A DNA stretch of 64,000 bases, from NCBI GenBank assembly GCA_002633005.1, contig NMRA01000317.1, positions 62,001-126,000 of the forward strand, in the 5' to 3' direction. The position numbers and the translations under genes are program-made. The first letter of the stretch is position 1. The number at the start of each line of letters is the position of its first letter. The notes below the pieces were generated by a model. The model worked only from the letters and a program-made list of their open reading frames with translations, was not told the DNA's origin and searched no databases. Positions 4,670-55,273 of this stretch are shown in pieces. The DNA is from Phoronis australis. Lineage: Eukaryota > Animalia > Phoronida.

Positions 4670-7600
4670 GTGAGCAAACACAAATGGAACTTCTTCTCGT
4701 GAAGATTTCTCACAAAGCACGTGTTTCATGCGTATGTTGTGGTTTTGGAATATTCTTGGATTTTGTTGCACTGGCATCATCGACATCTCAGTGAAATATT
4801 CTGTGTCATTTTTGATGATTTCCAATAGTTTTGTTGTCTGGGTCATGGTATAGTAGTTCTTAACCTATTGAGCACATACGATGGCCGACAAATGAAAGTC
4901 CGTTTTGTTAGATTTCTCTGCTAGGGTAAACAGATTAAGAACATTCAATAGTCTATTTCAAGCATACTTTGCAGTGTGTAGATATCACAAAACAACATTC
5001 GCTGGAGTTCTCAATGTAAAACAGTAATCAGCCATTGAAAAACGTAAAAATGATCATTTTAGCAATTATTTTTGGGTGAAATAAGGGAAGAATTGTGATA
5101 AGTAGTTGTTTGAATCCACATTTTAGGTGCAAATACGGGAAAGCCAATTACCATAGTACTGCCTGAGCCCATCACATGCCAACAGAGGAGATTGAATAGG
5201 TCATCGTCAGAACTCGACGAACTGTATGACCAGATCGAGGATGATGGCTTGGACACAGAGCCTGCAGGTAATTGGGTTGTCAAAAATGTTTACACTTTCT
5301 CCTATGGAGCTGTCTGGGTGTTTGTATGAATATTTAGACCTGCAAACAAAATAAAGGGTACGGGAAAATCCTGTGGTTTAAGACACGAATACAGTTTATG
5401 CCATCGTCACTGTATGGATATCCAGCATACGGTACAGTATCTCCTTAACCCCTTGCAGGGTCTCAATGAGATTTGGCAGATGTGGTCCTATGATATGAAG
5501 CTGATGACTTTTTGTCTTGCGTGTGAGGCGATATCTCCTTAACCCTTACAGAATCTTTGTGAAATTTGACAAGTGTATTCCAATGAATTTGACAATTGAC
5601 AGGTGGACCCGAGACTACTGTGCCTTTGAATGGCAATTTGATGATTGTTTTTTACATTTTGTCTCTATATGTTTGGAGTTTCTTGATATGTTTTTATGAA
5701 ATGTGGCAATTGCCGTTTATTGGGGAAAGTGGGACATATTTTGCGCCATCTAGTGACCATTTCTATGGTACTTATAAACACACCTAGAACCATACCGTTT
5801 GCTCTGCAGTCATGTTCACTTTTTAATGCTCTGCATTGCTCTTATGTAAGCTTTTAGCATGCATTACATCTAATACATAATACACTAGTTGCATCGTCTG
5901 TGAAAAAGATAATTATACTCACCCATGTTCTAGACATTGCGTTGTTCAGTCTGATTCAGCTTCAAATGAAGATAAACGTTAGTTTGAGATGGCTTAACTA
6001 GTCTGATGTATCAACCCCAACATTGTAGAACTTTTTTGAAAACTGGAGATGTGCACTTAAAAAAAATCTTTGCTTGAATTGTTCCTTCTGGCAAATGGAA
6101 AATCAAAATAAGAAAAAATCGTAGAAACTAATACACCTTCCAACGTGTAGTAACTTCAATAGATTGTCATACAGTGGTCTTTGGTTTGCAATTCAAAGGG
6201 TTTCATCTGTGGCCCTGCTGTCGTTTTTCAACTGCATTGTGGGACATTTTCCGTCTTGTAAACATCCAGTGATATTTTTGAAAACTTGGAGACGTGTCAC
6301 CTGATTTTATTATTTTTTGCGTTTTAGGTGGTGAGATCTGACTTCAGTGTGATCAGATGGCACGTGCTTCAGGAATTTCTTGCATAAAAGATTGCTCAAA
6401 GTATTCCTTTGATGCAATTTTTTATTTTTGTACGGCTGGTTGTTAAGTCATACTGTCACCTAAAATGATGTTGTATTGTATGCTTGGTTTCAAATATAGT
6501 GAGCTGACGTTATATGTGTTTCTCTGCCATATTGTTCACAAGTCACTAAGTTATCTATGATGTCATCAGATGCTTACAAGCCGACAACCGCCCCGCAGTG
6601 CATTTTAGAAACTACAGCAGTGCTGGGTGAAGTACCCCAAATTAGGCACCTCAGTATTAATATATGACGTTTGCAGATGCCAAGACCGCATCATTAGCGA
6701 CCTCTGGTGGTTACGACCACCTGTGGAATCCCAAGTCACCATCAGGCAGTGGTGTCTACAACTCCGTGTCATCGTTAGAGATGACACCTGACGACGACAA
6801 AGGTAAATGCTTTCTTCATCACGATGCCATTGTTTGACCACAGCACACGGTTGCCTTTTTTTCTGCACAGTTCGAAAGTCTTTATATTGTTGGGCAAGAG
6901 TTGTCCCACTATGTGTAAACTTGTAATTTTGCCTCCTAATTATAGATGTAGACCCTTGGCGTGTGTTTGCTATGCTTGCTGTAAGTGCACTCCGTGTAGC
7001 CTATTTTTGTGAATATTGAACATTTGAACTGGAGTCAAATAATTTTCATGATTTCCAAAAGAAGGCGCCACCAATTAGTGAGGATTTCCAGAAGATTACA
7101 CGTGTACATTATGTGTTTAGACTTAGGCTTATATGGACTAAGTTTGTGGGGGGAAGTGATCTGAAACTTTCACCATTTTTGACTGAATCTGGCGGGACAA
7201 ATGCCCATCCCATCCCTGCCCTCTGTTTAATGAGCCTGCATTTCATGAATCATATATCATACATACGTACATTGGTCGGTGTCCCTAATTTTTTTAACCT
7301 TGGACATAGTTGAGAGCCATTTTGTCCATGTACTTAGTCCGTGGTGATGGTGGCACGTTTGTCTACTCAACTCCACAAGTGAGTCTTATCTCTTTATTTC
7401 CATGCTCAGCGGTGAAGGACGAACCATTGTATTTTGATTATGACGACGCTCCCCTGCATCCTGACGCATGTGAGTGCTGTTTGCTTATAATGCTGTAGCT
7501 ATTTGTTGGTGACTGGATTGATTGTGAGTTATTAACTGGTCTAGTTATTGTTTGAATTTGTGCAAGTAAGTCAACGTCCTCGGCTTATTTCATGCGTCAG

Positions 7601-22600: not shown

Positions 22601-25600
22601 GTTGTATAACATCAGCGGCATTCTTCAACAATAGCCTACTCAGGATCTCCAAACTAAAGATCCCCCATCAGCGAAGGAACTTTTTCAGAAATACCTAGTG
22701 TATTCTACATAAAACTTTGGTGTTGTTTCAGCATGAAAGGGCTTTCTTTTGTCATCAATTTTTTCTGTGGGCAACGGATTAACAGTTATCCCCGCATGCT
22801 GTGTGACTTTTTTGCCTTTAGTAATCTCCTAAAAATGTGTTTTTTATTTTTTAAATTTTAGACTTGAAAAACCGCCCTGCCTGGGTTTTCCCTGAGAGTA
22901 CAATCACAACTGTCAACGCATTGTCCGAGGTGCCTCTGTTTTTCAAACCCCTGCCAACAGATGTCACTAGGCTTTACACAAAAGTGAGTACCACTATTGC
23001 TAAGAATGGCAAGCTTGGTAACATCTATTAGTCTTGCTTTGGTTCTGTGTTCCTATTTTCTAGTCCCTTCTCAAGACTGTAGGTTGGTTGATGGTTTCAT
23101 GATAGATATTTAGAAAGTGATGCCAACACAGATTGTCGGTCTTTGTGGTGGGCGTAATTACATGGCCAATAATTAGGTAGTCACCAGGCATTCAACTTGT
23201 TTTCAAGTGCATTTCCTAGGTCACATTTTGCTTGTTCATTAAACTCCACTCATTCAATTAATGACATCAATGTGAAAGTGAATTATTGGCGAGCGCAGCT
23301 GTACTCAGAACATCGATTCCTAAATTGCTCTTGACTGTGCTTGTATGATATATTTTTCCAGATCAGCTGTGGCTTACCGTTATACATCGTGAAGTCTGAC
23401 TTGGAACTGCAACACTTGTGGATATGCAGTAGTTTACCTGACAGGGGTCAAGTCACTGTGCTGTCAATGTGCTCCAACAAACCACACATACTGCAATCAT
23501 TTCAAGGTGAGTGGGTGGAGTCATGATGGGGGTGGAGTCATGGTGTGGGTGGAGTCATAGTGGGGGTGGAGTCATCGTGGGGGTGGAGTCAAAATTTTTG
23601 TGGAGTGAAGGTGTGGGTGGAATCAAAATTTGAGCCGTTGGTGAAGTAGCAATTTTTAAATGTATTTTTGTTGTGAGTAAAGTCTTGGTGTGAGTTTGTC
23701 ACAATGCAGGTGTAATCACAATTTGACTGAAGGCTGTCAATGTGCTCCAACAAACCACACATACTGCAATCCTTTCAAGGTGAGTGGGTGGAGTCACGAG
23801 GTGGGTGGAGTAAGAGTGCGGGTGGAGTTGCAGTTTGAATTGTGTGGGTTGTGTCGTGGTGTGGGTTATGTCGTGCGAGTTGAATGTGTTTGGATTGAGT
23901 GTTGTGTTATGAGATTCGGAGGGGTCACAGTTTATGCACCCTTATATACATATGTGGGCACGTTATGCCTTCATCGCTTTTTATTCAGCGTCTACTGCTT
24001 TATCTCTAAAACCCCCGTATGGTTGTTTGTGAAATTTCGCAGTCCTGTTCTTATCTTGAAGGAGATGAGCAAATTTTGGAATGGATTTGACCTCTGTCAT
24101 GCCCCCTAGTGGCAATTCATTTTTTACGTTAGCCTGTATATCTACTGCAGAGTTCCTTCTAGTTGACAGATGTTCGTGAATTTTGGCAAAGAGGATCAAT
24201 GAAACGACAACAATTGCCTTGTTTCAGATGTATTTGACTTATGCTGCACCCCTTTTGTCGGTTTTATTTCGTGCATTAATACGATGTTTATAAACGCCCC
24301 TGGAAGCATGCTTTTTGCGGTTTAGTAGTGGGCGCATTTCAACGCTTAGTGTCAGTCTCCTGTACTTTATCAAACTGGGGTAAATGACCTTTATACTTAC
24401 GGTGAATCATTTTTATAATGCATTCCATTTTGATGTCTGATAACTGAATCTGACAACTACATCATGAGACTAATGGAAGACAGGCTATCACTTTATTGAT
24501 CAGGCTGTGTTTTGACTAATTTCTGATTTGTTTTTCTGTTTTTGTCATTAGGGGCGTATATTAGTGCTATTTCCATTTAGACCAGAATTCTACGGTGGGT
24601 TTAAGACAGATGTTAGCCATGGCGTATCAACGACAGCTCAATTTGGTGAAAAAATAGCCACATTGTAGTTTTAATTATTTTCTTACCATTGGCTTAAAAG
24701 TCTGCGTGCTCGAGCGCATGTTCTTCTATTTTTAACCTGATCAATGTCCTGTTATATCACCTTGTCATAGCATCTGCATGCATTTTTCCTTTTTTCTGTT
24801 CTTCTAAAGATTTTCTGTATGCTTCATTTTTTCTGAAAACATAAAAGAACAAATTTCAACAAAAACTTTTTTAGTTAAAATATGTTACCAAATGGTGTTC
24901 CTTAAACATAATATCGATTTCTTCAAAAGTAAATGTTATCTGTTTTAGAAATTTTAAGTTTAATCCTGAAATTTGTGGTGTTACACCCCAGAGTGTCATG
25001 GGAAGTTGAATGATTTTGAATTTCGATGAATAAACTTGGAGAAATTGATAATAAATAATGCAAGTACATGCAGGGTTATCATTTGATAGGAAATTTCTCT
25101 ATTTTTGTCGTCAATGAATTTTTCTGTGGTGAAAATGAAGGAATATGCATACATTTTTGCCACCTGTTAGTTTTATTTAATTATTTATTAATGTAATATT
25201 TACAATGAGGGTATCCCCCAGGTCACACTGCTTTCCATGGGGGCCCTCAGTTTGTGGCATTGTTTATATGAAGTTATATAGTTATGAACATAAACATTGG
25301 TGTGTTTGTCAGAATATTTTACAATTTGGTTGTTGTGTAAAATGTATCTTTTGTTTTATTGTTCTTTCAATAGCCTTCTTGTGTTTGATCGACCTTATTG
25401 GTTCTTTTCGTAGCATGTGATGAAGCCATTACATGTGCAGAATTAGTTCCCGGTCATGCTGTTGCCATGACGGTGGATGGCTTTGATGATGACACAGTAT
25501 GGATGGGGACTGTGGCCAAGAGGTAAGTCACTGACCAGTGGAGCCATCTAGTGGTGGTTTCACATGAAGGCTGTGTGATGTACTTCAGTTATCTTACATT

Positions 25601-28600
25601 GGGTATATCAGATATAATGTGCACACGTTTGAGAACCAGACTGATGCCGGTTATTCAGTGGAGAAAACTGGTTCTTACAATGCAGACACGTAACATTCTA
25701 CCATTACCTTGCATTGTACATTTTAGTAATCAACAAAAATATGTATTTTAAGTCTTCTCGTAATTGGAAAGTGTGCAAACTAAACAAAAAATACGCGGAC
25801 AGCCATCGACAGGAAATAAATTATGCGTGGTTTCAGAATACGACTATTTTACTTTACAAACTGGCCATTATACATTCTTAGTGACTACAGGCGCTATAAA
25901 CTGGACGTGCTATTATCAGCGATTTGAATAGGTTAATCCAGTAAAAAACAAAAAAGTGAGAACAAATGTCTTGATTCAGTAGGCAACTCTGATCTTTTCT
26001 TGACTGCATCGTCTTTTTGGTGTGAATCTCATGCAGTTTGCTGAACAAAGACTTGCAGATTGCCCAAGAATTTTGACCGCCCCAGGTGAGTTGTACAACC
26101 TCACTTTTAGGGAGGTAGAAATGTTGCTTTTTTGATACATGCAAAATTTCATTATGTAGCGTGTTAAACATGACTCAGAAGTGGAGAAAATCGAAGCAAA
26201 TCGTTTGTGAGTAATTTAATGTTTCTGATATTTTTGATTTTTCAAATGTTACCATGACCACCGACACACCATATAGAAATTTTGAAGGTTCATATCTTAG
26301 GCTTACACAGGTAAACTCTACCGTATATTGCATTTTTCTTTGATGAATTACTTTTGGCCGCGGATGCAGTTCCACTTACTGTTTGTTATTCATTCTCCTT
26401 GAATAAAATCCCAAGGTCATTTCTATTAGATTTCAAATTGTGTGATTTTTTTAAAAATATGAATATAGGTCAGAGAAATAAACTCAAGTGTACTGTCACC
26501 ACTATGAAATTATGAAGACCTCTGAAGTTTTATCACGCGCTACGTTTGGTCAAGTTTCATTGAAAATGTGTGCATGTAATGCTCCTTGTTCTACTGTACG
26601 GAATAAAAAGATGGCCGACAGTGAATTCTGTAGAATAACTAACTTATCTGTTCGTGTGCAGATGCACTATGATCTTTTTTGTACCTTAATATATAAATGA
26701 AGAATTGACGGCTAAAATGATACAAAAATTTGAAAGTGGTCAAAAATTCTAAATTCAATTATTGTATAATTATGCAGTAAAATTTCACCAATTTAGGACA
26801 CAATATGGACGAGAATGAAATTATTTTTTCTCATTTTTTTCATAAAAGATGCGTAGCTTCAAATTACTGCTTTACCATGTTCAAGTGCTGTACCATAGCT
26901 ATAACTAGGAAACATTTTGATTAATTTTGGATATTCACAACAATGTTAGAAGGCGTTGAAAAGTGAGAATAAGGTCAATTTTGCCAATTATTTTTGTCCC
27001 AAAATGGAGAGATTTTGCTTTACCTTCCTTACAGTTTTCATCCTGAGAACAAAAACCTAATATGAACTTATTTCTTAATCATGAATTTTTATCAAAATGA
27101 GTTACCAGGTAACCCATATCTTCTAGAATATTTTTATTGGCTTGTCATGCCGCACCTTGTGACATTTAAGGTAACCGATATAACTGGGCTGTCGTTATTT
27201 CCCGCCAGTTGACCGAATTCAGATAATGACACCTGTAAGGATTTTATTATTTTATAATTATTCTTACTGAGAACGACAGTTATGAGGTTATTTCCAGCCA
27301 GCCAGGCACCTGATAGTTCTGCATGACTAGTCAATAAACTGTGTTAATTGTTATCATGGCTTCTCCCCAATGGAGGAACACATCACTAGGGAAAAATAAG
27401 TTAAACTATCATATCAATAAATCATCTCAAATATAATATACAGATCCGTGTAAGCGTTTAGAATTAATGAGCCTGGTGCTACAATTTTGTGTGCTGATCT
27501 TGACATGGTCATGTTACAGTACACGCCAAAAGTATTAAGACAAAAAGGCACAGAATTCCCCATCCTGATGATTGGGCTGAAGTATAATTCATCGTCTTAG
27601 AAGTCTAACTTCCCTCACGACAGACAATGAAGGGATGTTAACAGGGAATGTTAAGGAGGTGGCTAAGTCATTCCGTAATTTGAATTCTCCCATCATAATA
27701 GTCATTCCCAGCTTTTTATGCGCCCACATATTTATATGTGGACGCATTATGCGGTCATCTCCATCAGTCCGTCTGGCGTCCGTCCAACCGGCGTCCACTG
27801 CTCTCTCTCCAAAACACCTTGACGTATGTTCATGAAATTTTGCATGTGTTCCTCCTGTGGTTGGGACAGCATGACCGAATTTTCGGACCGATCCGACTAC
27901 CGGTGTGCCCCCTAGTGGCAATTTTAGTTTTTACATTTACCTCTGTATCTTCAAATGTCCTGAACGGATTTTCATAATATTTAGTATATAGGCACCTATT
28001 AGTGAGATGACACTATCCTCCCGTTTTCAGATGGATTTGACGTAGTTTGTGCCACCTAGTGGCCATTTTTACTGTTTTTGCGTCCACCCCTCTATCAACC
28101 AAACCGCTCAAAGGATGATTGTGAAAATTGGCATGTATGTTCTTACTATGAAGTGGACAGCTGACAATGATTTTCCGATGACTTCGACTACTGTGGCATC
28201 TCCTAGTGGCAGTTTTTTTTTTCGCCTATGGCTGTAACCCCTAAACTTTTCGCAGGATCATTACTAAATTTAGTAAATATATTTATATGATGTTAACAAC
28301 GAAGGACGACGACTTTCAGACGGATCTGACTACTGGTGTGCCACCTAGTATGTTCAAAGGTCCTCAAGGCAAACAGGCATCTGGTAATGAGATGACGCTA
28401 TCTCTCCGTTTTCAGATGGATTCGACCTAGTTTGCACCACCTAGTGGCCATTTTTACTGTTTTTGAGTCTGCTTTTTGGCGTCCACTCGTTTATCAACCA
28501 AACCGCTTTCAGGATAATTGTGAAAATTTACATGTATGTTTTTATTATGAAGTGGACAGCTAACGACGATTTTCCGATGAGTTCGACTACTTTGGCGCCT

Positions 28601-31600
28601 CTTAGTGGCAGTTTTGTTTTTTGTGCTCATGGCTGTATCTATTGAACCATTTGCAGGATCTTTACTTAATTTAGCAAGTATATTTAACTGATGTTGACAA
28701 TGGATGACGACGACTTTCGGACGTATTTGACAAGTGGTGTGCCCCTAGTGGCAATTTTAGTTTTTACGTTTACCAGTCTGTATCTTCAAAGGTCCTCAAC
28801 AGATTTTCATAAAAATTTTAATATAGGCATCTATTGGTGAGACGAGGCTATCATCCTGTTTTGGGATGGAATCGGGGTATTTTCACCACCTGGTGGCCAT
28901 TTTTTGCTGTTTTCAAATCTTGTTTTTGGCGTTCACCCCTCGATCAACCAAATCATTCTAGGGATGGTTTTGAAAATTGGCGTATATGTTTTCAGTGTGA
29001 AGAGGACGTTTGATGATGGCGACTGTCTACTGTGGCGCCTCCTAGTAGTAGTTTGGTTTTGTTTTGCGCCCATGGCTGTATCTCCAAAACCCACTGCAGG
29101 ATCTTTATTAAATTTAGTAAGTGAATTTAACTGAAGATAACAGACGACGACTTTCAGGCAGATGGAATGGACACTGTGCCCCACAAGTGGCAATTTCATT
29201 TTGTTCTATTTTCCTTTGTTTCTCTGTAGGTCCTTGACAGATTTTTCTGAAATATGGCATGTTCCCATTTTTGGATGGAGTGTACGTTTTTGCGCCATCT
29301 AGTGGCTATTTTTATGATACAAATAAATAACCCCAAAAGCACACCATTTGCGATGCATTCGTGGGCGCATTTCAACGCTCCGCGTTGCTCTTGTTGTTGT
29401 TAGTAGAATTGGTCGTCATGACGTGGAAATGATAGCTAGTCTGATTACTTTCGTCTTTGTGTTGTATGTGCTGACATCTTTGTGTTGCACACTGTGGGTG
29501 CATATCAACACTGTCTTGTCGTTTCTCTAGCTCGTGTCGTTTCTCTAGCTCGTGTCGTTTCTCTAGCTCATGTTTTTGTCTTGAGTTATATTATAGGCAC
29601 TTAAATATGTCACCTCAACTGAGCTGACACAAATATTGCGAAGGGTGTATAGAATTAGTGAGTTTCAAAATTTTATTTTTCTGGATCCTTTTTCTGATCT
29701 AGACATAATCACAGGGATATATCTAGGTTTCAAAACCTTGCTCGCCAGCTGGGCGAGTGAGCCAGAAAATCTACTCACCCAGCCCAAATCCAGTCTCCCA
29801 GCCGTTTGCATCACTTGCTACCAATGTAAATAAAAATCATTGTTTCGTGCGTTGATGCCACCATCTATTAGGGCTAGTATCGTTTTTAGAAAATAAATTC
29901 CTACTAAGAAACTTTTGACGTCGATGAATTCCCAGCAACGCAAGACTTTGCCTTGGCGCAAAGCTACAACAGGCTACAGCTACGGTGCCGATGTGGGTAA
30001 AAGACTGACCAGATAAAATCTGATACAATAGTAGTTTTATTAAAAACTGCACTCTTCCTCACTCCTGACACCAAAATGGAAGCCCCCAACCAAAAGCAAC
30101 AGCGCAAGAAATAAACTTATCATTAAGCGCAAGTCAAACATTTTGTCCACATCCACGTGTTCAAAAACTTATTCTTTGAACTTTTGATTTGCCTGGTGAC
30201 TTTTTACATGATGTGTGTTTGCTTCATTATTTTGGCAGCCTACAAAGCACCCCAATGCATAATAGTAATATCGTGGGATTGTTGAGGATGTGCTTTGAAC
30301 AAGCGCGGGTTTTGGCTTTGAACTAAAAAAGAAATAGACAATGTATATAAAATGTTACATTGTTCAAAGTATTCAGTTAGAAAATCTGTCAATCATTAGC
30401 ACGTGTTTGGTTGCCTAGGTGTCCAGCAGGAAGCAAATCTTTACAAATCAAGTGCTGCCCATAAAATACACCACGAAGTAGCGGAATCTTGCTTGATCTG
30501 TCTTTTCTCTCAAGAAACTTGCCCTACTGAATACACGCCTACCTGTATGAATACCTTAGTTCCAGGAAATGACGAATAGCCACCGAGGTACGTAAAAACC
30601 CAATCACGCTCAGGATCACGACGCCACTGTATCATGCACTACAGGCCGTCGGAAGTCCGTTACTTCAATCCCCCAACCTATCTTTTAACTGATATGCTTG
30701 AAGTCCGACGTCAGCGTAGCTCCGTGATGGTAAACTCAAGTCCTTCCCGATCCCTTGCATAATCAGCCAGTGTTTCATATAATCACCCTATTACTGTCGG
30801 CTAATATGACCATTTTCTGTCATAAACTCATCGGTTCGGCATGGAAAGCTAGATGTGAATGAGGTCATAATGGCTGGGTTTTGATGCCAATGAAAAGTAT
30901 AATAAAAAGATAATCAAGATGATGAAAGCCAGAAATAAAGGTTGCTTCTAATAAAACTGATGACTTAGACGTTAATATTTTGGTACTTCATAAAAGTGGA
31001 CAGACAGACAACTAGTCGAGGTGAAGATATGAAAAGTGAAGGGAGGTTTTCAGGCAATTTGCCTACAGTAATTCTCCACTTACTTTGCACACTCACTTGA
31101 TTTCGCACACCCAAAATTATTAGGAATATAACATTTTGTTCCGCAGTTATTTCACATGAGACTACTTGACAGGAATTTCTTGCCTCAACTAATTTCGCAA
31201 AGGGTCCGTTTTGTACCTGGGAAAATGTCAGCACCAAGTCCTCACTTTAATCCTGGGATCCTTTTCATGGTCGTACGCTGTTTCTGAAAAATTATTACCT
31301 GGGCAAAAGTGCCTGAGAATAAACGCGTAGCAGCTAGTTGGAGATAACTTCCATAACTTATCTTTAGACTGCGGTGCGCTTATAATTACTTGACCATTGT
31401 GAATAATGGGAGCATAGGGTAAAATGGTGAAATATCTGTCTTATGTCTTGAGTCACTTTTCATGAAACAGACCCCTCCCCAGTGTTAAAATCTTTTTATT
31501 TATGTTGCTAAGGTCTATACATTGTATAGTCACCACTTAATTCGTGTGGAATAGCTCATTAGAAACTTGGCCACACACAGATTGCAGTACAATGGTTGAT

Positions 31601-34600
31601 AAAATCTTTCAGGAACACTGATCTAACTTAACTTGACTTAAGGGCAATAAAGTACTGACTGAAATAGATTAAACTATTGTGGACTAAAACTGTTGATTTT
31701 TTATGTTTGATGTCTGAAGTTGAATTTCCTGTTCAACGTTATGATAGAACCAGTTTTTTTTTCAATGAAATGCGATAAGTGTTAGCCAAATACGATCTCA
31801 TTATTGCAGTTTTGTTGACCAACGGATGTAGTAATTGGTTTATGACATGTGAGCTCTTACAAAGGATTGCGAGAATGCTTCACAATTGTTCTTAAACTGA
31901 TCTTGGAAACCTGTTTTTGTCAGGAGTTGAAACTGTAGGGTGTGGGGTGGTGTTTGTAATGTCATGCTGTTGTAAACATGCAGTAAAGGGGTTGATCAAG
32001 ATGTGTATCGTGTGGTTCAGAGGTACGGTATTTGTTGACTAGAACATTTCACCAATGAGGGGGTAAACTGCATTATTATTAGTACAGGGTAACTTCTGTT
32101 AATAAGGTTTCATGTCGAGTCATATCAGTAATGTGTGAAAAACACCAGAAAAAGGTAACATACCTGCAACATGCTCTGCATGTTGTCAGTGTTTCAAACA
32201 TGTCATCACTTCAAAAAACCTTGAATAGTAATTGTGAACATGGAGCTTGTCTTGTGATAAACTTTGTTACAACAAGGTTTTTGTTGAAGTTGATGACATA
32301 CTGTTCTTAGGAACACAGCCACAAAAAATATACATGCATTATTATGATGCCTCCAAGCCATGATGGTTGTAGAGCTGTACCCCTGTACGAAGAGCTGTAC
32401 CCCAGTATAGGTAGAGTTGTACCCCTGTATGAAGAGATGTAGCCCGGTATGTAGAGCTGTACCCTGGTATGTAGAGCTGTACTCCACTATGTAGAGCTGT
32501 ACCCTGGTATGTAGAACTGTACCCTTGTATGTAGAGCTGTACCAAGTAGGTAGAGCTGTACCCTGGTGTATAGAGCTGTACCCTGGTATGTAGATCTGTA
32601 CCCTGGTATGTAGAGCTGTATTACGGTAGGTAAAGCTGTAATCTGCTATGTAAAACTTTACTCATGGCTGTAATTTTGATGCCACCATGCTTACATATTG
32701 AATTATCCATTAAAGTGCGAGAGCAACATTTGGTGAAAGTGAGTTGCTGACTGATTGTCCAGCAATGTTATAACTAGAATTCAGTACGTGAAATTTGTGT
32801 CTGCGTAACAATGGGGTCAATACTTTCATATTGAAACACAATTACTATTTACTAGATCAGATAACTCATAAGCTGCGTTTTATTAAATTCATGCTTAGTC
32901 AGTTGGAAGCCTTATGCATGGTTACTCGGCTAATTTTTTAGTGAACCTTGGACTACAAAGTCTGTATTTTCAGTTTATCCTGCCTGTGGGAAAAATGTAT
33001 ACTAACATATTTTGTGCGAAATAACAATCGTTCAGTATCCTTCAAGACCCTAAATAGTGCACCTGTAGTCTCAGTGGTATCTCCTCCTTATAAATAAATT
33101 GATGAAAACTTGTCAAAAAATACGCGAAATTATGGTAGTGTTTTTAACAAATTAATTGAGTGACCTCAATTGGCCAGCAAGTGAATTGTTGTTGAGGTAA
33201 CCAATATTGCACTTTCAAGCAGCAGAAATACATTGCAATGACCATTTTGTTCATGTGGTTGAAATTTACACTAAAGAGTTCAGACTAAGGTTACGCCCAC
33301 ATTGAGTGCCATCTGCTTCTGGATCCTGTTGTGTGAAACAGGTCATTCACTATATGAACAATGACTTTACAGTAATAAAACATTGGCTAAACAAGTTGAT
33401 AAATCGTTGACTAAAACTGGTGATTTTTCTGACAGTTTGTCTTCTGAAGTTGAACTCCTGGTAAAAAGTTATGTTAGGATCATTTTTAAGACCAGGAAAA
33501 TTTGCCAAAATGGATGCGCTATGTCTCTGTGCTCATTGAGCCATGACAGATAATTGGCTTGCGAGTGGTGATGTCAGACAAAAGCGTCTGGAGTTTAAAC
33601 CAGATGTGAGGTTTTTGTAGTGTCTAATTCCAACGCAAGTCAATTCTTAATTCTGTCTTGTCGAGCATTCTGTCACTTAAATGGTTGTCCAACACTCAAA
33701 TTTTTATTCTTGTTCCTGTACGCAACAAGTTACGAACTTGGTATGAGGGAAGAAGTGTTTGTCTTCCCTTGAGTTCTGCTGGCATCTGCATAAAAGTCTG
33801 GTGGGTATGTACATAAACATGTTATGCAATATATGTGATGATAGCTGTGGGTTATTATATTTTGATTCATGCTATGCAACCAAATCCCTGACTTTAGGCT
33901 TGCACATCATGGATATTGACGTACAGTAAAGTTTCCATAAAGTCGAACCAAAATAATGGCCAAAACTGTATTTTTTTTAAATTTCAAACTCTCATTGTAT
34001 TGCCAACAATTCCATCTTGTGTTTGTTGATGACAGTCGTACTACATGAAGTTTTCAAGTAGTAAAGTAAAATGGTCTTCTTGTTTACCCTAGATCAAAAT
34101 TTTGATCAAATAAAAGTTTTCTGTTCCGCCATATTGTGTTCTAATTTTAAAGATATTCAAAAACTCAGCACACTTTGATCTCTTGATCCTTACATGTGTT
34201 GTGTAGAGTGTAGTTATAGTACATTCACACTTCCTTGATGGCTAAACCTCATGAGCAAAGCCACTGACACCTGTACTTTTAATAAAGAGATTGTTTTTGT
34301 TCTGAACAGCTTCGTATATTTTTATGCGCCCTCATATTTATATGTTGACGCATTATGCCGTCATCTCCATCCGTCCGTCCGGGCGGCATCCGCTGTTCTA
34401 TCTCCAAATCCCTTTGACATACGTTCATGAAATTTGGCATATATGTTCCATTCATGAATGGTATGTAGGCACTATTAGTGAGATGACGTTAACCTCCCAT
34501 TTTCGGATGGATTCGACGTAGTTTGCGCCACCTAGTGGCCATTTTTACTGTTTTCGAGTCTGTTTTTGCGTCCACCCCTCTATCAACCAAACCACTCAAG

Positions 34601-37600
34601 GATGATTGTGAAAATTGGTATGTATGTGCTTACTATAAAGAGGACAGTTGATGATGGTTTTCTGACGATTTCGACTACTGTGGCGCCTCCTAGTGGCAGT
34701 TTTGTTTTTGTTGCGCCTATGGCTGTATCTCTTAAACCGTTTGCAGGATCTTTACTTAATTTATCAAGTGTATTTATATGATGTTGACTACGGATGACAA
34801 CGACTTTCGGAAAGATCTGACTACTGCTGTGCCCCCAAGTGGCAATTTTAGTTTTTAAGTTTAACTCAGTATCTTCAAAGGTCCTCAACAGATTTTCATA
34901 AATTTTGAATATAGTCATCTATTGGTGTGATGACGCAATCTTCCTATTTTTGGATGGAATCGAGGTATTTTGCACCACGTAGTGGCCATTTTTGCTGTTT
35001 TCAAATCTTGTTTTTGGTGTCCACCCCTGTATCAACCAAATCATTTGAAAATTGGCATATATGTTCTCAGTGTGAAGACGACCTTTGATGATGGTGACTG
35101 ACTACTGTGGCGCCTCCTAGTGGTAGTTTTGTTCTGCGCCCATAGTTGTTTCTCCTAAGCCCACTGCAGGATCTTTACTTAATTTAGTAAGTGTATTTAT
35201 ATGAAGATAACAACAGACGACGACGACTTTCAGGTGCATCGGACGGACACTGTGCCCACTAGTGGCAATTTCATTTTATTCTGTTTTCCTTTGTTTCTCT
35301 GAAGTTCCTTGACAAATTTTTATGACATATGGAATGTATCTTTTTGCGCCATCTAGTGGCCATTTTTATGATACAAATAAATAACCCTAAAAGCACACCA
35401 TTTACAATGCATTCGTGGGCGCATTTCAACGCTACGCGTTGCTCTTGTTAGTGTTGAAATTGTTGACTGACGTAATTCTATGTAAAACCTAAGAACGGTA
35501 AAAATTCTCCAGTTTGGGATGGTGAAAAATTATCATTTTGCTCGAGGTCAGAGCTTGTACCAAATTTTAGAAATTGGCAATATAGGGCGTCCCAAATTCA
35601 AGCATTACAGTAAATGACAAATGATAACTAATAACATGAATGACAAGCTTGAGTTGGCAGCTATTTTGGACGATTTTACGCTATTGTCAAGTCTATTTTC
35701 AGGCTCTGTCCTTACAGAACACAGTAGTCTTAGAGTAACCACCCATAGTGTCCTCATAGGGGACCTAGAAATTCTTAGCAGTGTAAGATTTTTTGGTTGT
35801 TTCATGTTGAGGTGGCCCCCCTGAAGCATTTAAGCTGCGTTGTAATAATGACAACTTTGAGCATTTTTAAATATGCAAATTAAAGCTGCTCTTATATGCA
35901 AAACTCTGTTTTTGCTCTTAACTTCGTTCCCAGGTTCTGTAGGTAAATTATTTTGGTGTTTTTACTTTGTTTCCTAGGTCAGAGAGTTCAATGGAGCTAG
36001 TTTACAGGTGGATAAATCGTGACATTGCATAATTTTTGTGAGTTAAAACTGGCACTGTTCAAAAACCTACTTGTGCTTATAGCTTGCACAAAAACTCCAC
36101 AGGTAAATTATTCTGATATTTTCTCCCATGTTTCTATGGTCACTTAATTTAATTAAATCGGTGTGGAAGCCCTTGCGAGGTGATAAATTTCCATAATTTA
36201 TGCAAATAATGACCACCATTATCTGAACGTCTGTTTCTATTCGTGACGGCCTTAAGTCTCTTTCCCAAGAGGAAACGTGTCACAGGGGCGTTCTCAGCTG
36301 ATACATAATATCACAAGAATTGTTGTCAGGGTTCCATATCAGTTTGTTTTAAACCTTTGAAATCTTTTGACTTCTTTGTTTTGATACATGTTTCAACAGA
36401 TATAAACAAAAAATATGATTTTGAGATTACAGTTGCATTTTGCCCTGTGTTTAGCTGGCCAAAAACAAAGATCGAATTAGGAATTTTACTTTCAAAATAC
36501 TGGTCTCGTATATTGCTTACCATATGACAAGATTCCATTTCATTACCAACTTAAGTCACAGAGAATGTGTATATGTGCCATTGGTTGGGGCCGAGATGCA
36601 GCAGCCTAGTCACATTTGTGATGATGTGACAATGTAACTGACTAGATGCGCAGCAGCTAGAATGAGCAAACACAGCCATTGTCTTGATGACAAGTATCTT
36701 AACTTTCGAGAACAACTTTCCGACAATCAGGTGTTTGTTGAACTGATGAAAAAAGAAAATGACATTTTAAATATGCCAGGTTGTGTATCAGTTGTTGGCT
36801 GTGGAAATTTTCCAAGCAAGTCTTTAAAATTTGGCTTAATGCTGTAGTGGTGAAGGTGGAGGTATGTATGAATAACTCGACATTTTCTAAATTACCATTT
36901 TGTTTACTGTAACTTTTGAGTCTTGTTGAAAATTGTAAAATTTCTATTTTTGATAGCCCCTCATGCAAAAATGGATCCTTATGAAAACAATTTCTAAAAA
37001 CGTTTTGGAGAACATTGCACAAAGCATATTATCATACGAATCCGATCAGCTGTTTTTTTTTTTTGAGATAGGATGTTCCGAATTTTGTCAAATTTTGACA
37101 TTTTTCTAGTCAAGTACTACATAACCTTAAAAGGGTTTTGGTTTATCATGCTACCACAACAGGATAGTGTGATGTCAGTTATTTGCTATAGTAAAAATGA
37201 TTTTGGCACGGACAAAAAACTAACCACTGTAAAGTTTCAAAACATTTGAATAAAAATAATTGCAAACAATGACATTTTCCCATTTTCCAAAAGCTCACTT
37301 CATTGTGAAAATGGTCAAAATTTCACGTGTGTTTGTTGATGACGGCTGTATAATATAAAGTGTATGAATGATGAAGTAAAATTTTCTTCCTCTTTTGGCT
37401 TGTTCAAACTTCGTGAAAATAAAATTTCACTGTCCCGCCATAGTGTGTTGTAAATTAAAACAGCTTTTCTCTATATTGTGAAACTATTTACAAATCACTC
37501 GGTGAGGGTATTATGCAAAAACACGAATGCCACAGATTATATTAACTCTGCTAAACCATTGACCTGTCATTTATTAAAGTTGATATTTCAAGTTTGGCAA

Positions 37601-40600
37601 TACCTGTGGTTAATTGTGCAATATTTAGTAATAAAATATGGGTGTATAAACTTATGCTGGTGAGATAACAATGTTTTCTCATTACATACAAATCAGTTTA
37701 GTGTTTGATGTGTTGAATGCATTCAGAGTTCAAGGAAATGCTTTTTGCATTGTTTATTCAACATCAGTATGATAAAATCTCACAATTTCGTACAAAAATA
37801 ATTTCCAAAATTGTCCTTTAAAGTGTCTTTCAGTGTCAAAAGTAATATTCAGTTTTGTAGAATAAGGAAGTTAAGGCTGTTGAATCATAGATGACTCTCT
37901 GTTGAAGTTCCCGGATTCATTCTATCAGCGCAGTAAGATATGCATCCATTTGTTTGGAAATATTCTCTTGACCACTTGAGGCAACAATCATGAAATATGC
38001 AATGCAAACTGCAGTGACAGAACAGTAATGACATTAGTCTAATACAGTGCAGGCCAAAAGTATTTAGATAAAATGACCTGGACTTCACCTTTATGATGGC
38101 TGGCCTGAAGCCAAATCGTCTGGGTAATCTTCCCTCATGGCCAAGATTATGAAGGGGAATTAACTGGAAAGTTGATAAAATGGCCATAATAAGCTATTCT
38201 GCAATTATAGTTTCGTCCCCTATATCATTTTAATTAGCCACCATGACAGGAAAAAGTTTTTTGTGTGGCTGATTACTTTTGTCGTGTGCTTTGTATCCAT
38301 GTAACTATTATCTAGGAAATGCTTTCATCGTGACATCACAATGCTCCCTCAGTACAGTTACCTGAGTGCTTTTCATTCATGAGCCATAATTGTGAGAATG
38401 CCACCATTTGGCAGAATTTTTACTGCATTGACTCAAGTATGTGTTACTTGTTCACAGTCATAGCCCTGGAACAGTTTTGTCTAAGGTTTGCCTGATCATA
38501 TCTACCATGACTGAGGCACATTCTTCTGCATTATTTATACAGTAAAATCTCCCCACTTTCGCACAAAAATAATATCCAAAATTGTACTTTTTCATATTTC
38601 AAAGGCTTCTTGTATTGTTGTTCATGCCCACATTTTTTTCAAAATATTGTCTGTTGGTAAACAATGTTACAGAACTTGAATAAGACAAAGCATTAGTTCG
38701 GAACTATGTAATTGTTTATGAAAACATGAAAAAACAAAGTTTCAAGGATCCCCTATATTGTGTCCTAAATTGGTGAGATTTTAATGATTGACACATGAGT
38801 ACATTTTACATGACATTCACAAATCAGTTTTAATGAACTGTAGTCAGTGAAATTCAAGACATACAACTGACTTAGCGAACACAAGGCACAGGACCATTGA
38901 CAAAACAGTGTCCTGCATGGATATTGTTTTGGCTTAACTAAAGTGCACATTTCCATTATTATGTTTTTAAACACATTGTAAAAGCCATAACATGGGGGAT
39001 TGTCTGCAAAATCCGATTGATTGATCATCGGTGACACATTTTTCACCTTCCTTGAAAATTCTTCTACAACCATATTTTCTAGTTTAACTGCTTGCAGGTT
39101 CTGATGGCAAAGTTTTCTCCTAAGGCCCTTTCATATTGACTTAACTCCGGTCTGAGCGGAGCGTCGATGTAGACAGCGCAGTTAACTGGACTGTTCATAC
39201 TGGCTTCGGTAGTTAATGACCATCGAAGTAAAGGGTCGGTGACGCTGACGTCATCGAAGTTATCGCAAGGTAGCACTGCACGCTAAGATTTTTTTTCAAT
39301 GTGACAATTTGGGAACATTTAAATGTGCTTAATGACATTAAACTCATTTTTAAATCCATTGGTTATCATTAGAGCAAAAATAAGTAGTTATTAGTGACGG
39401 CACTACTCTGTAACTGTTGACGATAACAGTGGCACCTAGCAGTAACTTCGACTGGACCGGAGTTAAGCGTTCATACTGCACCGCAGCGTCGACGCTGCGG
39501 TCTTAAATCCACCTGTTAACTGCGATGTTAATTGGAGCTGTTAACTGCGATCCAGGACCGGAGTTAAGCGTTCATACTGACCACAACTCCCCAAACCATC
39601 GACGCGTCGACGTTAGTATGAAAGGCCCTCTAAGGCCAAAAGAAGACTTTGAGTTAAGCATCTTCTGTCTGGATCATTGCGTTTTGCCTAATCCAGTTAC
39701 ACACAGTAAACATCTGGGGTGTCATGTTTCCCTAGGAAGCAATTTACCAACAGAACACTTTAGGACTACTTTCCAATGAATGAATAAATCAGTAATGTGG
39801 ACCAGTAAGATTGTTCATTGTTTTAGTTTATAGGTTGTTTGAAGCAGGTACCTTTTTTAATTTTTACATGTAATTTAATCAGTTGTTGAGATTTTAAGGA
39901 ATTCAAGTTTGAAGCAGATACCTTTATTTTAAAATTGTCACGAGGAATGTAATCTTTGAGATTAAATCGAGTGCAGTTAAAGAGGGTTTGAGGAAAAGTT
40001 TAATTTTTAATTTTCAATCGCAACAGTGTAGCAAATAATAATCACGGGGGCTAAAATGGAACAAAGACAGAGTTTGCAATGCGTACTGCACTATTGAAAA
40101 AGTCTTTGGTAGTCAACATTGATACACCGAGACGAAATTTTGTTTTAGAGCTTTACACTAGTTTTTATTAGATAAGAGATCTAATGTATGATAAACTATT
40201 GGCAAATAAAATTGGTCTGCACGGTAGGCCTATGTGGAAGGAAAATTACTCATATTTTATAAATACTCATATTTTATAAAACACTCCTGTACATGACTTG
40301 TTGTGTCATAAAAAAATCACATGTAATCGTCTGTTGCCATAGATAATAATGTGGAATCATCTGACGTTTTGCCAGCAGATATTTGGCTAATTGCACACAC
40401 TTGTAAGGTCCCACCCACTTTTAAGTTATAGTTTACTGAAAATACACTATGGTGAATTCTCGCCTATCATTTGGACAAAAATGATTACTGAAATTGCTCT
40501 TTTTGTTATGAATGAACACATTTTTCAAAATATTATTTGATGGTAACTGCGGTAGAGATTAAACATCTTTCATAGAAAAAGTGAGAAAATACGATTTCAC

Positions 40601-43600
40601 GTGCTGTCGTAGTGTATCCTTTGTTGGTTAGAAGTTACCGTAGGCAACAGACAGAACCCATCATCTGTCCTTCAGGTCATCCTTGTCATAGATGTCCATC
40701 GTTTCTTTACAGTATCGTTGTCCACTCGCTGCCCAGTCAGGATGTCCAGGACAGCACTAGTCGACCCCAGCCTAAACTGACTGTTACACTACCCAGCGTT
40801 CCAACTCGGCTCAAGTTCACATGTAACAGGCTTATCGTGGGCACGGAAAATGGTACATTGGTTATTTACTCCAGAGCAAAAGGTAAATAATTACAGTAAA
40901 ATTTCCTTGAATTTGAACAAAATAATGGCCAAAATTGTCGTCATTTATTCTTCAAACGCTCATTACCAAAAACGAAAAAAATTCACCGTTTGTTTATGAC
41001 AGTCGTACTACGTAATGTTTTCAAGGTATCAAATCAAATGTCTTCTTGTTTCCTTTTGTAGTAAGCTTTGTTAAAACAAAATTTAATTGTTTTGCCATGT
41101 TGTGTTCCAATTTGAAGACATTTTATCGTATTGTAACCAACTTCCTCTGTCACATTCAAATGGTCACCTGATGGTACAAGGAGACAAAACATTGTGTCAT
41201 TCAAATCTTCAGTCCAGTAAAATGTCACCAGTTTAGGTCAGAAAGTTGTGGACAAGTGAAGTTTTATTTTACCACTTTGTCATAAATGATATACAGTACT
41301 ATAGTGACGCTTTGACATGTCTATATGTTCTGTATTGAAGCTATCAACAGAAAGTATTTTGAAAAATTGTTTGCATTTACAGCAATGTTAGAAGCCCTTG
41401 AAAATAGCTGTGAACAATTATTATTCTCAAATGTTGAGATTTTATCATACTTTCTTGGCCGGCCGCTAACATTTGACTGGGTTTAGAGAGCCACCAAGGT
41501 CTGGGGTCTATGCCCCAACATTTGACTGAGTTTAGTGAGCTACCGAGGCCTGCGGCCTATTCTTCTTACTCAAAGTCGAACTAGAAAGCATTTTTGACAT
41601 TTTCCCTTGTACTTAACTACCAACTCAAGGTAATTATCTATAATTATATGTCTAGATAATGGTTTACTTACAAATTCACACTTGAGGACTCTTAGATTCC
41701 AGTTAAAACTCCTGCATAACAGGATTTTACAATCATCCACATTATCTAGCATAGAATTTGAGTCAATTATCTTGAGTTCCTTTTAAACATGACTTATAAT
41801 TTGCAATTACAAATTACACGCCACTCACCCCTATCCGCCTGCAGATAGGGCATTACCATACCCTTTGTGTTTCTAGTGCAATACACCTAGTTTGGTAGAA
41901 ATAATTACAGGTGCAGTACTTTCTAACAAAGATTTTATACAGTACTCATGCCTGTCTAGGGACTACCTGGCACCATGCCGAGAATTGGCATACCTTAAAA
42001 ATCCAGCTGCTGTGTGGTGGTTTGGTAACAGTCCCAATTATATTGCACACCCACCAGAAATGGCAACATTATAGAAACATTTCTGGTGGTAAAAGTCACA
42101 TTTCTTGTCCAATTTTCAAAATTCAGAAACCTAAATCATGTGTACTTTTCATGAATTATTCAAATATGCTATTTACAAACTTTCAAAACGCAAATTTAAA
42201 AATACTATTGTCGCTCCCAATGTGTTTATGATGGATCTCATTATTTAGAGAACGATAACATCAGCAGCCAGAGGCGATTTAATTAATCACAAAAGCATGG
42301 TGCCTTTGATCTAAACCTGCAGATTTTGTTGTCCGCAATCTGGTCAAGTTGCCCAATGTCGACCGGTTAGGGTGTCAAACATAGGATTCTTTTCGTGACA
42401 GTTTATGCCTCTAAACCTCCTTACACGAATTTTTTGACTGCCAGTGTTTGCAAGGCCGCGATTGTGAACAGTTTGATTGTTTGTCCAGACTCCTGTTTCA
42501 TGTTAGCAATTTTCCACCCTTTGCTGTCCCTTTCAGTTCTCAAATCTGATAGTTTGCCCATACCAAGTATTGCTTGACATATACCAATATATTGGTTCCT
42601 AGCATACATTAAGGAACTAATTCTGTTCTGTTTTGATACCACCCTTTGTCCTTTCTTTCATAGAAATGTCCTTGTCAAACTATTTGTCTTGAGTTCTGTT
42701 GCAATGAAAAGGGCAAATATTGAAAATAGGCTATCAGTAACCATGTGATCTGCTTATGTATTGTTACCACTGATATATATCTTTGTTAAATTGTCGTATG
42801 AAATGTCATTTCCTTATGACTGTTTTTATTTAAGCAACAAATAGAATCTGGGTTACAAACTTGAAACTTTTGGCGCCACTGGTCCAGAAAACTTAAAATG
42901 TTTATATTTAATAATGTTACTCAAATTTCCTTATCTTCTTGTGTTGATTTTACCAATTGGAAAACTTTTTTTGGTTGCCTTTTAGTGCCAAGTATTTTTT
43001 TTTTTGCTGCAGATTCTTGTTTACTGTTGTGTATTACTTCTCAAGTTTTGTCTACTTCACTCAACTGAGACGTTCCCCTATTATGTATTTATCTCTGATA
43101 TTCGCTCAGTTTAGGTGGTTGCAAAAGTTGATTTGGGGAAAGTCTCAATACTTAAGTAACAATTTAAATCTTGCACTTCTTTCTTCTATTAATACCGTAA
43201 ACATTTGGGTTATCGCCTTTAGCGCTTTAAGCCTGTATTTCACTGAGTGGGCGCTTATCCCAGAGGTAGGCACTTTAATCGGAAATTTCAAGAAATTGGG
43301 GATGGGCGCTTATCCTAACATGGGTTCTTGACCTGTGCCAGGCAATGACCTGACCACCTATGGCCTTTAGAATTGAAGTACACAGATCCAAAGTTAAAAA
43401 ATTTGTCACAAAGCTAATTGCTAACACAAAAATTCAATCAGTGCTCTCTAATTGACACGTGTGTTCGAGTAGTAAGTTTACGAATTGAAAAAGGTGGAAA
43501 TACACATTTAAAGATACCTGCCAAAATTCTACTTGCCAATGTTTATGAATGTCATTTGAATCTTTGAAGATCCAAAGTTGGATAAGTCTAAATCCAAACT

Positions 43601-54125: not shown

Positions 54126-54131
54126 AATAAA
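54126..54131 (+). terminator. Candidate distal polyadenylation signal of the ARHGEF10-like gene (proximal alternative at 49864)
   Basis: AATAAA at the end of a T-rich, TGTA-rich stretch typical of 3' UTR ends. Confidence 0.4.
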
Positions 54132-55273
54132 CCGAATATTCTATGCAAGTGTTGTTGTTAATAGCACTGTGTGAATGTGGACAGGATTGACAACACATTG
54201 TAGCTTGGTAAGTACTGGTAAGTAATGCCCATTTCTGACAGTTTCCAGGCATTGTACATTAGCGTGTCTGACTGCCAGTGATATTGTGGTGAACACATCA
54301 GTAGTGATGCTGTCATATCTGATGTCCATCTAGTCCCATCTTGAACAAGACAGGTCAATAACCGGCAGGTACCAGCTCTAGGTCAAACATTGGTCATTGA
54401 CCATGTAGACTAGACACCTTAGAAATGCCATTCATTGTGTACTACATGGCACAATGGAAATTGGTGCATTCAAAATTCACTAGGGGTCACTAGTGAAGCA
54501 AGGTACCTTTCCTTAAAATACCTGTATTCATGTAAACAGAATGGAACCCTTTTCACACTAACATGCCCATGATCTGCTGTCTGCTCTCGATCTAGTCGGA
54601 TATTAGACTGTTAATATGCACTAAGCATTGATATGTACACAGAGTGCACCCCAATCTAGGGGTGCTCATCAGTTCATGCAAGGTACAAGGAGACGATTCG
54701 AGCACAGCTGTTGGTACCTTATTGCCACACTAGACAAAAAATAGCATGTCTGGTCTACTTCATAACATATAGAACATTCGGGAACATACAAGATATGTAA
54801 CAGGGTAAACAGACAAAATGACCACTAGGGGATGCTGAAGAAATAGAAATCGCACCTATGGCAAGCTTCATTGAAATTCGTCAGTTCACTAGACATCCGG
54901 AAACGCTATTTCCACAAAAAAATAATGAAACGTCCCAGCCTTGGAGTGCAGGGCACCATTCTAGTGATGCTCTCAACACTTGTCAAATTTCATTAAGTTT
55001 CAACCAGGGGTTTTTGGGGTATCGAGTAGAGAGATAAACAGGACGACAACATACAACCACATATGTGAGCGCGTAGACAAAGGTACCATTAAATATTAGC
55101 ACTACCTAATAAATGGTGTTGCTTTTTACTGTAATACAATTGGTTATCGACTGTGCCAAGTGGCACACTCCTTAGAGCTATTCACGAATTATACAATATC
55201 CATCTCCAGTCACCTTTGAGTGCCATGGTGATGGAAAGGTAGAACACAAGAACACCAGGATTTAGCGCTTTAG

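What the first reader, a model, noticed from the sequence alone, without database searches (positions are those of the whole stretch)
34319..35449. Second CTCF-like array in the same 15-kb intron, with textbook matches
Seven cores, including tgcgccacctagtggcca (34524-34541), ggcgcctcctagtggcag (34682) and tgcgccatctagtggcca (35345), in the same orientation as the 27.7-kb array. Intron 18 therefore holds about 18 co-oriented candidate sites within 8 kb, which could act as a strong one-way boundary inside the gene.
Basis: partly seen in the sequence, partly recalled or inferred. Interest (0 to 1): 0.7.

Follow-up and report, generated by a model that had tools for sequence, protein, structure and literature searches.

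The report
Jumping DNA carrying CTCF-site arrays
The seven motifs are real but sit inside one copy of a very abundant non-coding repeat built like a rolling-circle transposon, whose internal repeats each carry a predicted binding site for the genome-folding protein CTCF and whose RNA reads run almost all one way, so it is likely a family-wide passenger feature rather than a boundary built for this gene.

Summary
Observation confirmed: seven CTCF-like cores (0-2 mismatches to a recalled consensus, all on the minus strand) at 34525-35359; 18 with the 27.7-kb array. But 34319-35449 is exactly one copy of a dispersed non-autonomous Helentron-type element (HINE): subterminal inverted repeats, CCGT microsatellite, ~145-bp central repeats, 3' hairpin, T-rich ends, no target duplication. 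Hundreds of contigs leave its two ends into unrelated flanks; five more copies lie in this window. The host is an ARHGEF10-like gene of a lophotrochozoan. Co-orientation follows from tandem duplication plus a family-wide bias: 95-99% of family RNA reads run in the element's own direction. The core is the best-kept part across monomer types (75% vs 48%), but not among three local copies (p=0.53), and CpGs decay 2.3-fold faster. So: an element-borne motif array, CTCF binding plausible (~0.5), a one-way boundary here unlikely (~0.1); published invertebrate data show little CTCF orientation dependence. Ten paper searches found no HINE with CTCF arrays. The scan noted other transposon-borne motif arrays on other DNA, not this sequence.

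The parts
34319..35449 (+). One full-length copy of a non-autonomous Helentron-type (HINE) element, 1131 nt
   Evidence: BLAST to sister copies; family ends defined on the sister copy by loose ends at 27712/27713 and 29395; last 60 nt 57/60 identical to the 27.7-kb copy
34319..34353 (+). 5' module: T5, subterminal inverted repeat (34324-34333) and adjacent inverted repeat forming a hairpin
   Evidence: (fold -4.4 kcal/mol here, -10.1 in the 27.7-kb copy)
34368..34382 (+). Short (CCGT)n microsatellite of the left module
   Evidence: sequence; GTCY-type microsatellites in oyster HINEs
34411..34461 (+). Junction where this copy lacks the first (type A) monomer that other copies keep
   Evidence: joint 34458->27862 in 140/128/210 minus-first-mate RNA reads; loose end at 34461 in X4
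34461..35367 (+). Central array of ~145-bp monomers in order B C A B C A B-terminal (three-monomer higher-order unit of ~420-450 nt)
34525..34538 (-). CTCF-like core 1 (type B), 0 mismatches
34683..34696 (-). CTCF-like core 2 (type C), 1 mismatch (A at position 9)
34829..34842 (-). CTCF-like core 3 (type A), 1 mismatch (position 6)
34972..34985 (-). CTCF-like core 4 (type B), 2 mismatches
35110..35123 (-). CTCF-like core 5 (type C), 1 mismatch (A at position 9)
35252..35265 (-). CTCF-like core 6 (type A), 1 mismatch (position 8)
35346..35359 (-). CTCF-like core 7 (terminal monomer), 0 mismatches
35415..35424 (+). 3' subterminal inverted repeat (9 of 10 complementary to the 5' one here; 10 of 10 and 11 of 11 in sister copies)
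35427..35441 (+). 3' palindrome, 6-bp stem with 3-nt loop, followed by CTCTTGTT
   Evidence: -5.6 kcal/mol, DNA parameters
27713..29395 (+). Sister copy in the same intron, 11 cores, 89% identical over the shared 3' part
144..1020 (+). Sister copy, 5 cores, 84% identical over the shared part
23929..24352 (+). Older, degenerate copy with both end modules and one clear core (24099)
5395..5845 (+). Older, degenerate copy with 3' module and one clear core (5743)
54806..55076 (-). Remote relative (5' module E=0.0012, monomer core E=0.0034) on the minus strand, beyond the point where AT skew changes sign
   Evidence: best hit on the reversed-window control E=1.2
25523..40712 (+). Host intron (GT..AG) of an ARHGEF10-like gene

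Best explanation
The stretch is one copy of a very abundant non-coding repeat with the full anatomy of a non-autonomous Helentron (HINE), likely spread by a rolling-circle transposase supplied by an autonomous partner, and each of its ~145-bp internal repeats carries a predicted CTCF-binding core that was likely kept because it helps the element rather than this gene. Shown: element ends, many loci, monomer structure, one core per monomer, the core as the best-kept segment across monomer types, and RNA reads of the family running 95-99% in the element's direction and out through both ends. Inferred: one ancestral monomer held the core; tandem duplication made the array and its uniform orientation; copies sit mostly sense to host transcription, which puts the CCA..GGC strand on the template strand; a zinc-finger protein, most likely CTCF, binds some cores and keeps copies partly open (cores lack the methylation-sensitive CpG at position 2), and the reverse orientation is the one best tolerated in introns. 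Any insulation at this locus would be a by-product. Odds: HINE 0.92; core kept for a protein-binding role in the active lineage 0.6; CTCF bound in vivo at a real share of copies 0.5; strong one-way boundary here 0.1.
For: Anatomy matches the defining features read in PMC4067079 and PMC7492417 (versus 16, 37, 67, 79); in X1, 81+229 contigs leave the 5' end and 389 leave the 3' end into unrelated T-rich flanks (agreement 0.36-0.38); summed depth in three element bins is 4,500-11,800 times that of three unique bins in X1 and 3,200-35,400 across four runs (not a copy number); between-type identity 0.75 in the 14 core columns versus 0.48 in 126 others, best non-core window 0.63, column-shuffle p=0.019 (16 of 19 gap-checked A/B/C monomers; 3 dropped for private deletions); five element bins in three runs have 0.949-0.996 of reads with first mate on minus, like two host exon bins (0.79-0.96) and unlike three bins over other repeats (0.22-0.54); reads cross the ends into varied flanks (228-318 at 27713, 342-404 at 29395). 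T5 runs are only 2.1:1 sense in the gene. CpG o/e 0.85-0.96 in three copies versus 0.55 in the window. All 7 cores start CCA; C2 methylation is the inhibitory one. Outside the six copies the window holds 5 matches at <=1 mismatch versus 0.2 for 1000 permuted patterns. Named best protein relatives are a brachiopod, molluscs, nemerteans and an annelid.
Against: No binding, accessibility or contact data. No autonomous partner, no empty site and no CTCF gene were seen (no genome held; no empty-site joint among the 15 of 4770 joints shown; none in the window). Among three local copies the cores vary as much as the rest (12/68 versus 119/557 columns, p=0.53) and CpG transitions are 14/126 versus 30/630 (p=0.011), a sign of methylation. 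The monomers are related, so p=0.019 is generous. That 3 of the 4 positions differing between monomer types are degenerate positions is not significant (p=0.17), and type C has a non-consensus A at position 9. The motif was chosen after seeing the sequence; some long motif will match a repeat by chance. The RNA bias rests on one study, three runs, about a fifth of each read, and could partly reflect RNA survival; the five same-strand copies in the window give p=0.03, or 0.14 after target composition.
Confidence: 0.6

Rival explanations
1. Neutral passenger: a HINE whose founding monomer happened to resemble the CTCF motif; the conserved box serves something else (transposase binding or nicking, repeat amplification, nucleosome phasing) or nothing, and copies are methylated and unbound.
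For: No local selection on cores and 2.3-fold CpG decay; oyster HINE monomers also keep short conserved boxes without this core (11 'ctagtgg' in 3.37 M characters of array tables); motif picked after the fact.
Against: A 145-nt monomer of this composition holds a <=1-mismatch match in about 0.07% of shuffles; the best-kept segment coincides with the motif; positions 1-7, 10, 11 and 14 are the same in all four type-majority cores; CpG o/e is high.
Confidence: 0.3
2. One reading: the two arrays are bound by CTCF and act as a strong one-way cohesin barrier inside the gene.
For: 18 co-oriented cores in 7.5 kb; transposon-derived CTCF sites anchor loops in mammals (PMC7156512 abstract); amphioxus shows a slight excess (>52%) of convergent pairs; the reverse orientation would face the promoter side (recalled vertebrate rule).
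Against: Hundreds to thousands of like arrays genome-wide; five of seven cores here carry mismatches and one monomer is lost; no local selection; no orientation pattern in sea star, sea urchin, Dimorphilus, and none identified in squid.
Confidence: 0.1
3. The sense bias and motif strand reflect how the element inserts (strand transfer into the displaced, T-rich non-template strand of transcribed genes) and have nothing to do with CTCF.
For: T-rich ends on both sides; T runs are enriched on the sense strand; single-stranded intermediates are proposed for HINEs. This can hold together with the best explanation.
Against: Composition explains about 2:1, the RNA ratio is about 20:1 or more; oyster HINEs were reported in both orientations in the assembly, though not scored against genes.
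Confidence: 0.35

Closest known systems
HINE / DINE-1 non-autonomous Helentrons (PMC4067079: passages and section 6 read, supplements searched)
   Same: Non-coding; subterminal inverted repeats, nested 5' inverted repeat, microsatellite, central repeats, 3' stem-loop, T-rich ends, no target duplication, high copy number.
   Different: [quoted passage not shown]
Cg_HINE elements of Crassostrea gigas, Pearl, DTC84 (PMC7492417: parts 1-3 of 7 read, supplements searched)
   Same: Lophotrochozoan HINE with short arrays of 140-180-bp monomers, fixed array orientation within the element, copies inside genes.
   Different: Here three monomer types alternate at only ~55% identity as a higher-order unit; oyster arrays lack the core; a sense bias towards host transcription is not reported in the parts read.
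Transposon-derived CTCF sites in mammals (PMC7156512: abstract and outline only; B2 SINE example recalled)
   Same: A mobile element spreads CTCF motifs genome-wide.
   Different: There binding and looping are measured; here a rolling-circle element, 5-11 motifs per copy in tandem, an invertebrate, binding untested.
C. elegans Helitrons carrying HSF-1 sites (PMC8896005: passages) and Helitron minisatellites that insulate (bioRxiv 10.64898/2026.08.08.743475: abstract and outline only)
   Same: Helitron-family internal repeats that carry host regulatory information; transcription-linked strand effects in the preprint.
   Different: Different factor; the preprint's insulation is by 10-bp periodicity, not a protein motif, in an animal without CTCF.

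Membership tests
HINE (non-autonomous Helentron) | Subterminal inverted repeats near both ends (11-15 bp in described families) | tested here: met
   11/11 in the copy at 144, 10/10 at 27713, 9/10 in the finding; 5 nt from the 5' end, ending 25 nt before the 3' end; at the short end of the published range
HINE (non-autonomous Helentron) | Inverted repeat next to the 5' subTIR | tested here: met
   14-nt arms, 93% complementary in two copies; hairpin in the finding
HINE (non-autonomous Helentron) | Short palindrome 3' of the 3' subTIR | tested here: met
   6-bp stem, 8 nt from the end
HINE (non-autonomous Helentron) | Microsatellite in the left module and central tandem repeats | tested here: met
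   (CCGT)n at 34368-34382; monomers
HINE (non-autonomous Helentron) | T-rich/TT insertion site without target duplication | tested here: met
   T-rich flank consensus at both ends; flank overlap 0-1 nt in 3 of 3 copies; no empty site seen, so the exact TT split is open
HINE (non-autonomous Helentron) | Interspersed, many loci with the same ends, no coding capacity | tested here: met
   longest ATG frame 111 aa; 0 of 5 frames reach a Pfam cut-off
HINE (non-autonomous Helentron) | Autonomous Rep/Helicase/endonuclease partner with the same ends | not testable with these tools
   no genome held
Functional CTCF site | Match to the 12-15-bp core | tested here: met
   with a recalled IUPAC pattern, not a PWM; CCA first triplet and G/T at position 9 agree with PMC10484683
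Functional CTCF site | Host encodes CTCF | not testable with these tools
   expected for a lophotrochozoan; indirect support from motif excess outside the copies
Functional CTCF site | Purifying selection on the motif | tested here: inconclusive
   kept across monomer types, not among three local copies
Functional CTCF site | Occupancy in chromatin | not testable with these tools
   no ChIP or ATAC run among the 8 listed
Orientation-dependent loop-extrusion boundary | Insulation or stripe in contact maps that depends on motif direction | not testable with these tools
   no Hi-C; literature in related invertebrates mostly negative

The most novel reading that the evidence does not exclude
A rolling-circle transposon has seeded a lophotrochozoan genome with thousands of nucleosome-spaced CTCF arrays (tens of thousands of sites), nearly all pointing against host transcription; CTCF binds them, shields the element from silencing and gives the genome a transposon-built, directional insulator layer, a natural test of whether CTCF orientation matters outside vertebrates.
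Probability: 0.2. Interest if true: 0.85.

Novelty: new variant of a known kind. Interest (0 to 1): 0.5.

Why it matters
Whether orientation-dependent CTCF looping is ancestral or a vertebrate invention is open, and spiralian data are almost absent. A family that drops co-oriented motif arrays at thousands of loci, with copies that differ in core number, gives many natural replicates in one Micro-C or CUT&RUN experiment. It is also a warning: motif scans in this genome will be dominated by this repeat, so motif enrichment or orientation statistics must mask it. The near-total sense bias is unexplained in itself and bears on how Helentrons choose or survive at targets.

Tried and rejected
No whole genome held. 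Rfam on 27000-36000: 0 matches. Metagenome scan with the 18-nt 3' end: 25 of 25 loci were chance matches, 50-72% GC, none with the core. No empty site in the window and none among the 15 of 4770 joints listed for DNA contigs; this is no evidence of fixation. No splice joint across the host intron among the 15 of 213 joints listed for RNA; host exon depth was only 1-4. No RNA holder listed in the index. Coding potential rejected. Classical MITE rejected: no terminal inverted repeats, no target duplication. SINE not favoured: RNA reads enter from upstream flanks, no tail, no duplication. Satellite rejected: fixed ends, short arrays; TRF does not call it. A first monomer table held spurious cores and was redone. 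A DH-exon search found nothing at 1e-10; the ESM Atlas gave no lead for the downstream minus-strand frame, so a gene there is inferred from skew only. An upstream (ZF9-11) motif was not tested. One structural paper recalled by id was not held. Paper searches listed no HINE or Helentron with CTCF arrays; subscription papers and Repbase/Dfam were not searchable, figures and bioRxiv supplements were not seen.
Full report
1. The observation. The three quoted strings lie at 34524, 34682 and 35345. A recalled IUPAC consensus (CCASYAGRKGGCRS) finds seven cores in the finding, all on the minus strand, with 0,1,1,2,1,1,0 mismatches, spaced 94-158 nt. In the whole window it finds 41 matches at <=2 mismatches against 4.75 expected. 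Shuffles of the finding and column-permuted patterns never reach the observed counts. With 11 cores at 27.9-29.3 kb the total is 18 in 7455 nt. The host intron is 25523-40712 of an ARHGEF10-like gene (RhoGEF, PH_19 and WD40_2 matches). The best-scoring relative of the last exon is from Lingula anatina, and of ten top hits looked up the eight with a species name were a brachiopod, five molluscs, a nemertean and an annelid; a DH exon hit only Lineus longissimus. The host is therefore most likely a lophotrochozoan, a group in which CTCF orthologues are reported (passages, passages).

2. What it is. Copies lie at 144-1020, 27713-29395 and 34319-35449, degenerate ones at about 5395-5845 and 23929-24352, and a remote relative at 55076-54806 on the minus strand. 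Each full copy begins with T5, a 10-11-bp subterminal repeat and a nested inverted repeat, then a CCGT microsatellite, then ~145-bp monomers, and ends with the complementary subterminal repeat, a 6-bp hairpin and CTCTTGTT. There is no target duplication and no coding capacity. These are the features that define HINE/DINE-1 elements (PMC4067079, passages and section 6; PMC7492417, parts 1-3 of 7). Public contigs of organism A (four runs, at most two samples, one study, possibly the source of the window) confirm a large family: in X1, 310 contigs leave the 5' end and 389 the 3' end into unrelated T-rich sequence, and summed depth over the element is thousands of times that of unique intron (the tool warns that this is no copy number, and monomers map to several places).

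3. The array. Monomers fall into three types, A, B and C, about 50-60% alike between types (shuffled background 45%) and mostly 65-88% within, plus a terminal variant. The finding reads B C A B C A B-terminal; it has lost the first A monomer that other copies keep. Every monomer has one core at the same place, so uniform orientation within a copy is a consequence of head-to-tail duplication. Across types the core is the best-kept segment: 0.75 identity against 0.48 elsewhere, next best window 0.63, p=0.019 by column shuffling (16 monomers, three with private deletions and the terminal and damaged ones left out; monomers are related, so the p-value is generous). Majority cores of the four types differ only at positions 8, 9, 12 and 13; three of these are degenerate in the pattern, which alone is not significant (p=0.17). 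Position 9 accepts G or T in the human structure paper; type C has A. All seven cores begin CCA and so lack a CpG at position 2, the position whose methylation blocks binding (PMC10325916 and PMC10484683, passages). Against function: among three copies the cores vary as much as the rest (12/68 against 119/557 columns, p=0.53), and CpG transitions run at 14/126 against 30/630 (p=0.011; 5/42 against 5/210 in the finding), so these lineages have seen methylation, although CpG o/e stays at 0.85-0.96 against 0.55 for the window. The oyster HINE arrays lack this core. Outside the six copies the window still holds 5 matches at <=1 mismatch against 0.2 for permuted patterns, as expected of a genome that uses the motif.

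4. Orientation between copies. In three stranded RNA runs (one study, about a fifth of each read) reads on five element bins have the first mate on minus in 0.949-0.996 of cases, the same sign as two host exon bins (0.79-0.96), while three bins over other repeats give 0.22-0.54 (two further bins that overlap element ends were left out of the table and point the same way). Most reads come from other loci (only 222-295 of 6772-8424 laid reads per run are 99% alike) and run through both ends into varied flanks, so they are read-through from many host transcripts, and family copies in transcribed DNA are mostly sense. The five copies in or just upstream of the host gene are all sense (p=0.03; 0.14 after allowing for the 2.1:1 excess of T5 runs), and the sixth flips where AT skew flips (a gene there is inferred, not identified). 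The sense strand of the element is T-rich, so oligo-dT capture would favour the opposite strand (inference). Either insertion is strand-specific, or antisense copies are removed or their RNA lost. In mouse cells Pol II stalls at CTCF motifs oriented with transcription, bound or not (PMC7999233, passages); the family presents the other orientation, if that paper's forward strand is the CCA..GGC strand (recalled). That is a lead, not a test.

5. How it most likely works. Shown: a multi-copy HINE-type element whose central repeats each hold a CTCF-type core. Inferred: mobilisation in trans by a Helentron transposase; retention of the core in the active lineage because a host zinc-finger protein, most likely CTCF, binds it and keeps copies partly open; tolerance in introns in the reverse orientation. 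With 138-158 nt between cores there is no room for a nucleosome between two bound neighbours (inference), so a bound array would be nucleosome-free. A strong one-way boundary at this gene needs orientation-dependent loop extrusion, which sea star and sea urchin do not show (PMC13317027, passages), Dimorphilus shows no directional arrangement, squid was inconclusive and amphioxus shows only slightly (PMC10013865, passages). Same-orientation clusters are common in the human genome while boundaries are marked by divergent sites (PMC7422557, passages).

6. Novelty. The element class is known. Transposon-borne CTCF sites are known in mammals (PMC7156512, abstract), Helitron-borne factor sites in C. 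elegans (PMC8896005, passages), and Helitron minisatellite insulators in a preprint (abstract). The scan's notes hold nothing like this sequence but, on other genomes, a HINE-like repeat with RFX/NF-Y arrays and a P element with four CTCF-type sites; I did not check these and had set my reading before the look-ups.

7. Verdict. Real motifs, ordinary carrier, unusual cargo and orientation. New variant of a known kind; interest 0.5.

Noticed in passing
window 25541, 2086, 6697, 9579, 61989: Five solitary CTCF-like matches (<=1 mismatch) outside the repeat family, against 0.2-0.3 expected; the one at 25541 lies 18 nt after the donor site of the host intron. These are better candidates for host-selected sites than the arrays.
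   Followed up: partly
window 25631-25675: Fragment of a second expressed repeat family; RNA reads from other loci extend it with ends resembling this family's subterminal repeat, so possibly a related HINE or small derivative; reads lean to the opposite strand (about 70-78%).
   Followed up: no
window 3077-3740: A 660-nt near-perfect palindrome (arms 88-93% complementary) whose frames recall the end of a Penelope-like element endonuclease (recalled; no Pfam match).
   Followed up: partly
window 29750-30800, 31440-31800, 35500-35600: Further repeat families in the same intron, summed contig depth roughly 50-150 times unique.
   Followed up: no
window 2318-2846 / 16312-16839 and 39122-39627 / 51824-52311: Two pairs of ~500-nt repeats in inverted orientation, about 90% alike; the second shows RNA on both strands.
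   Followed up: no
window 59547-60170: 310-nt exact tandem duplicate split by an N at 59856: probably an assembly gap artefact.
   Followed up: no
window 54000-64000: AT and GC skew change sign, suggesting a convergent gene on the minus strand; a candidate coiled-coil exon near 58394-58620 next to a 46-bp tandem array was not identified.
   Followed up: partly
window 32364-32652 and 23511-23632: 20-bp and 17-bp minisatellites in host introns.
   Followed up: no
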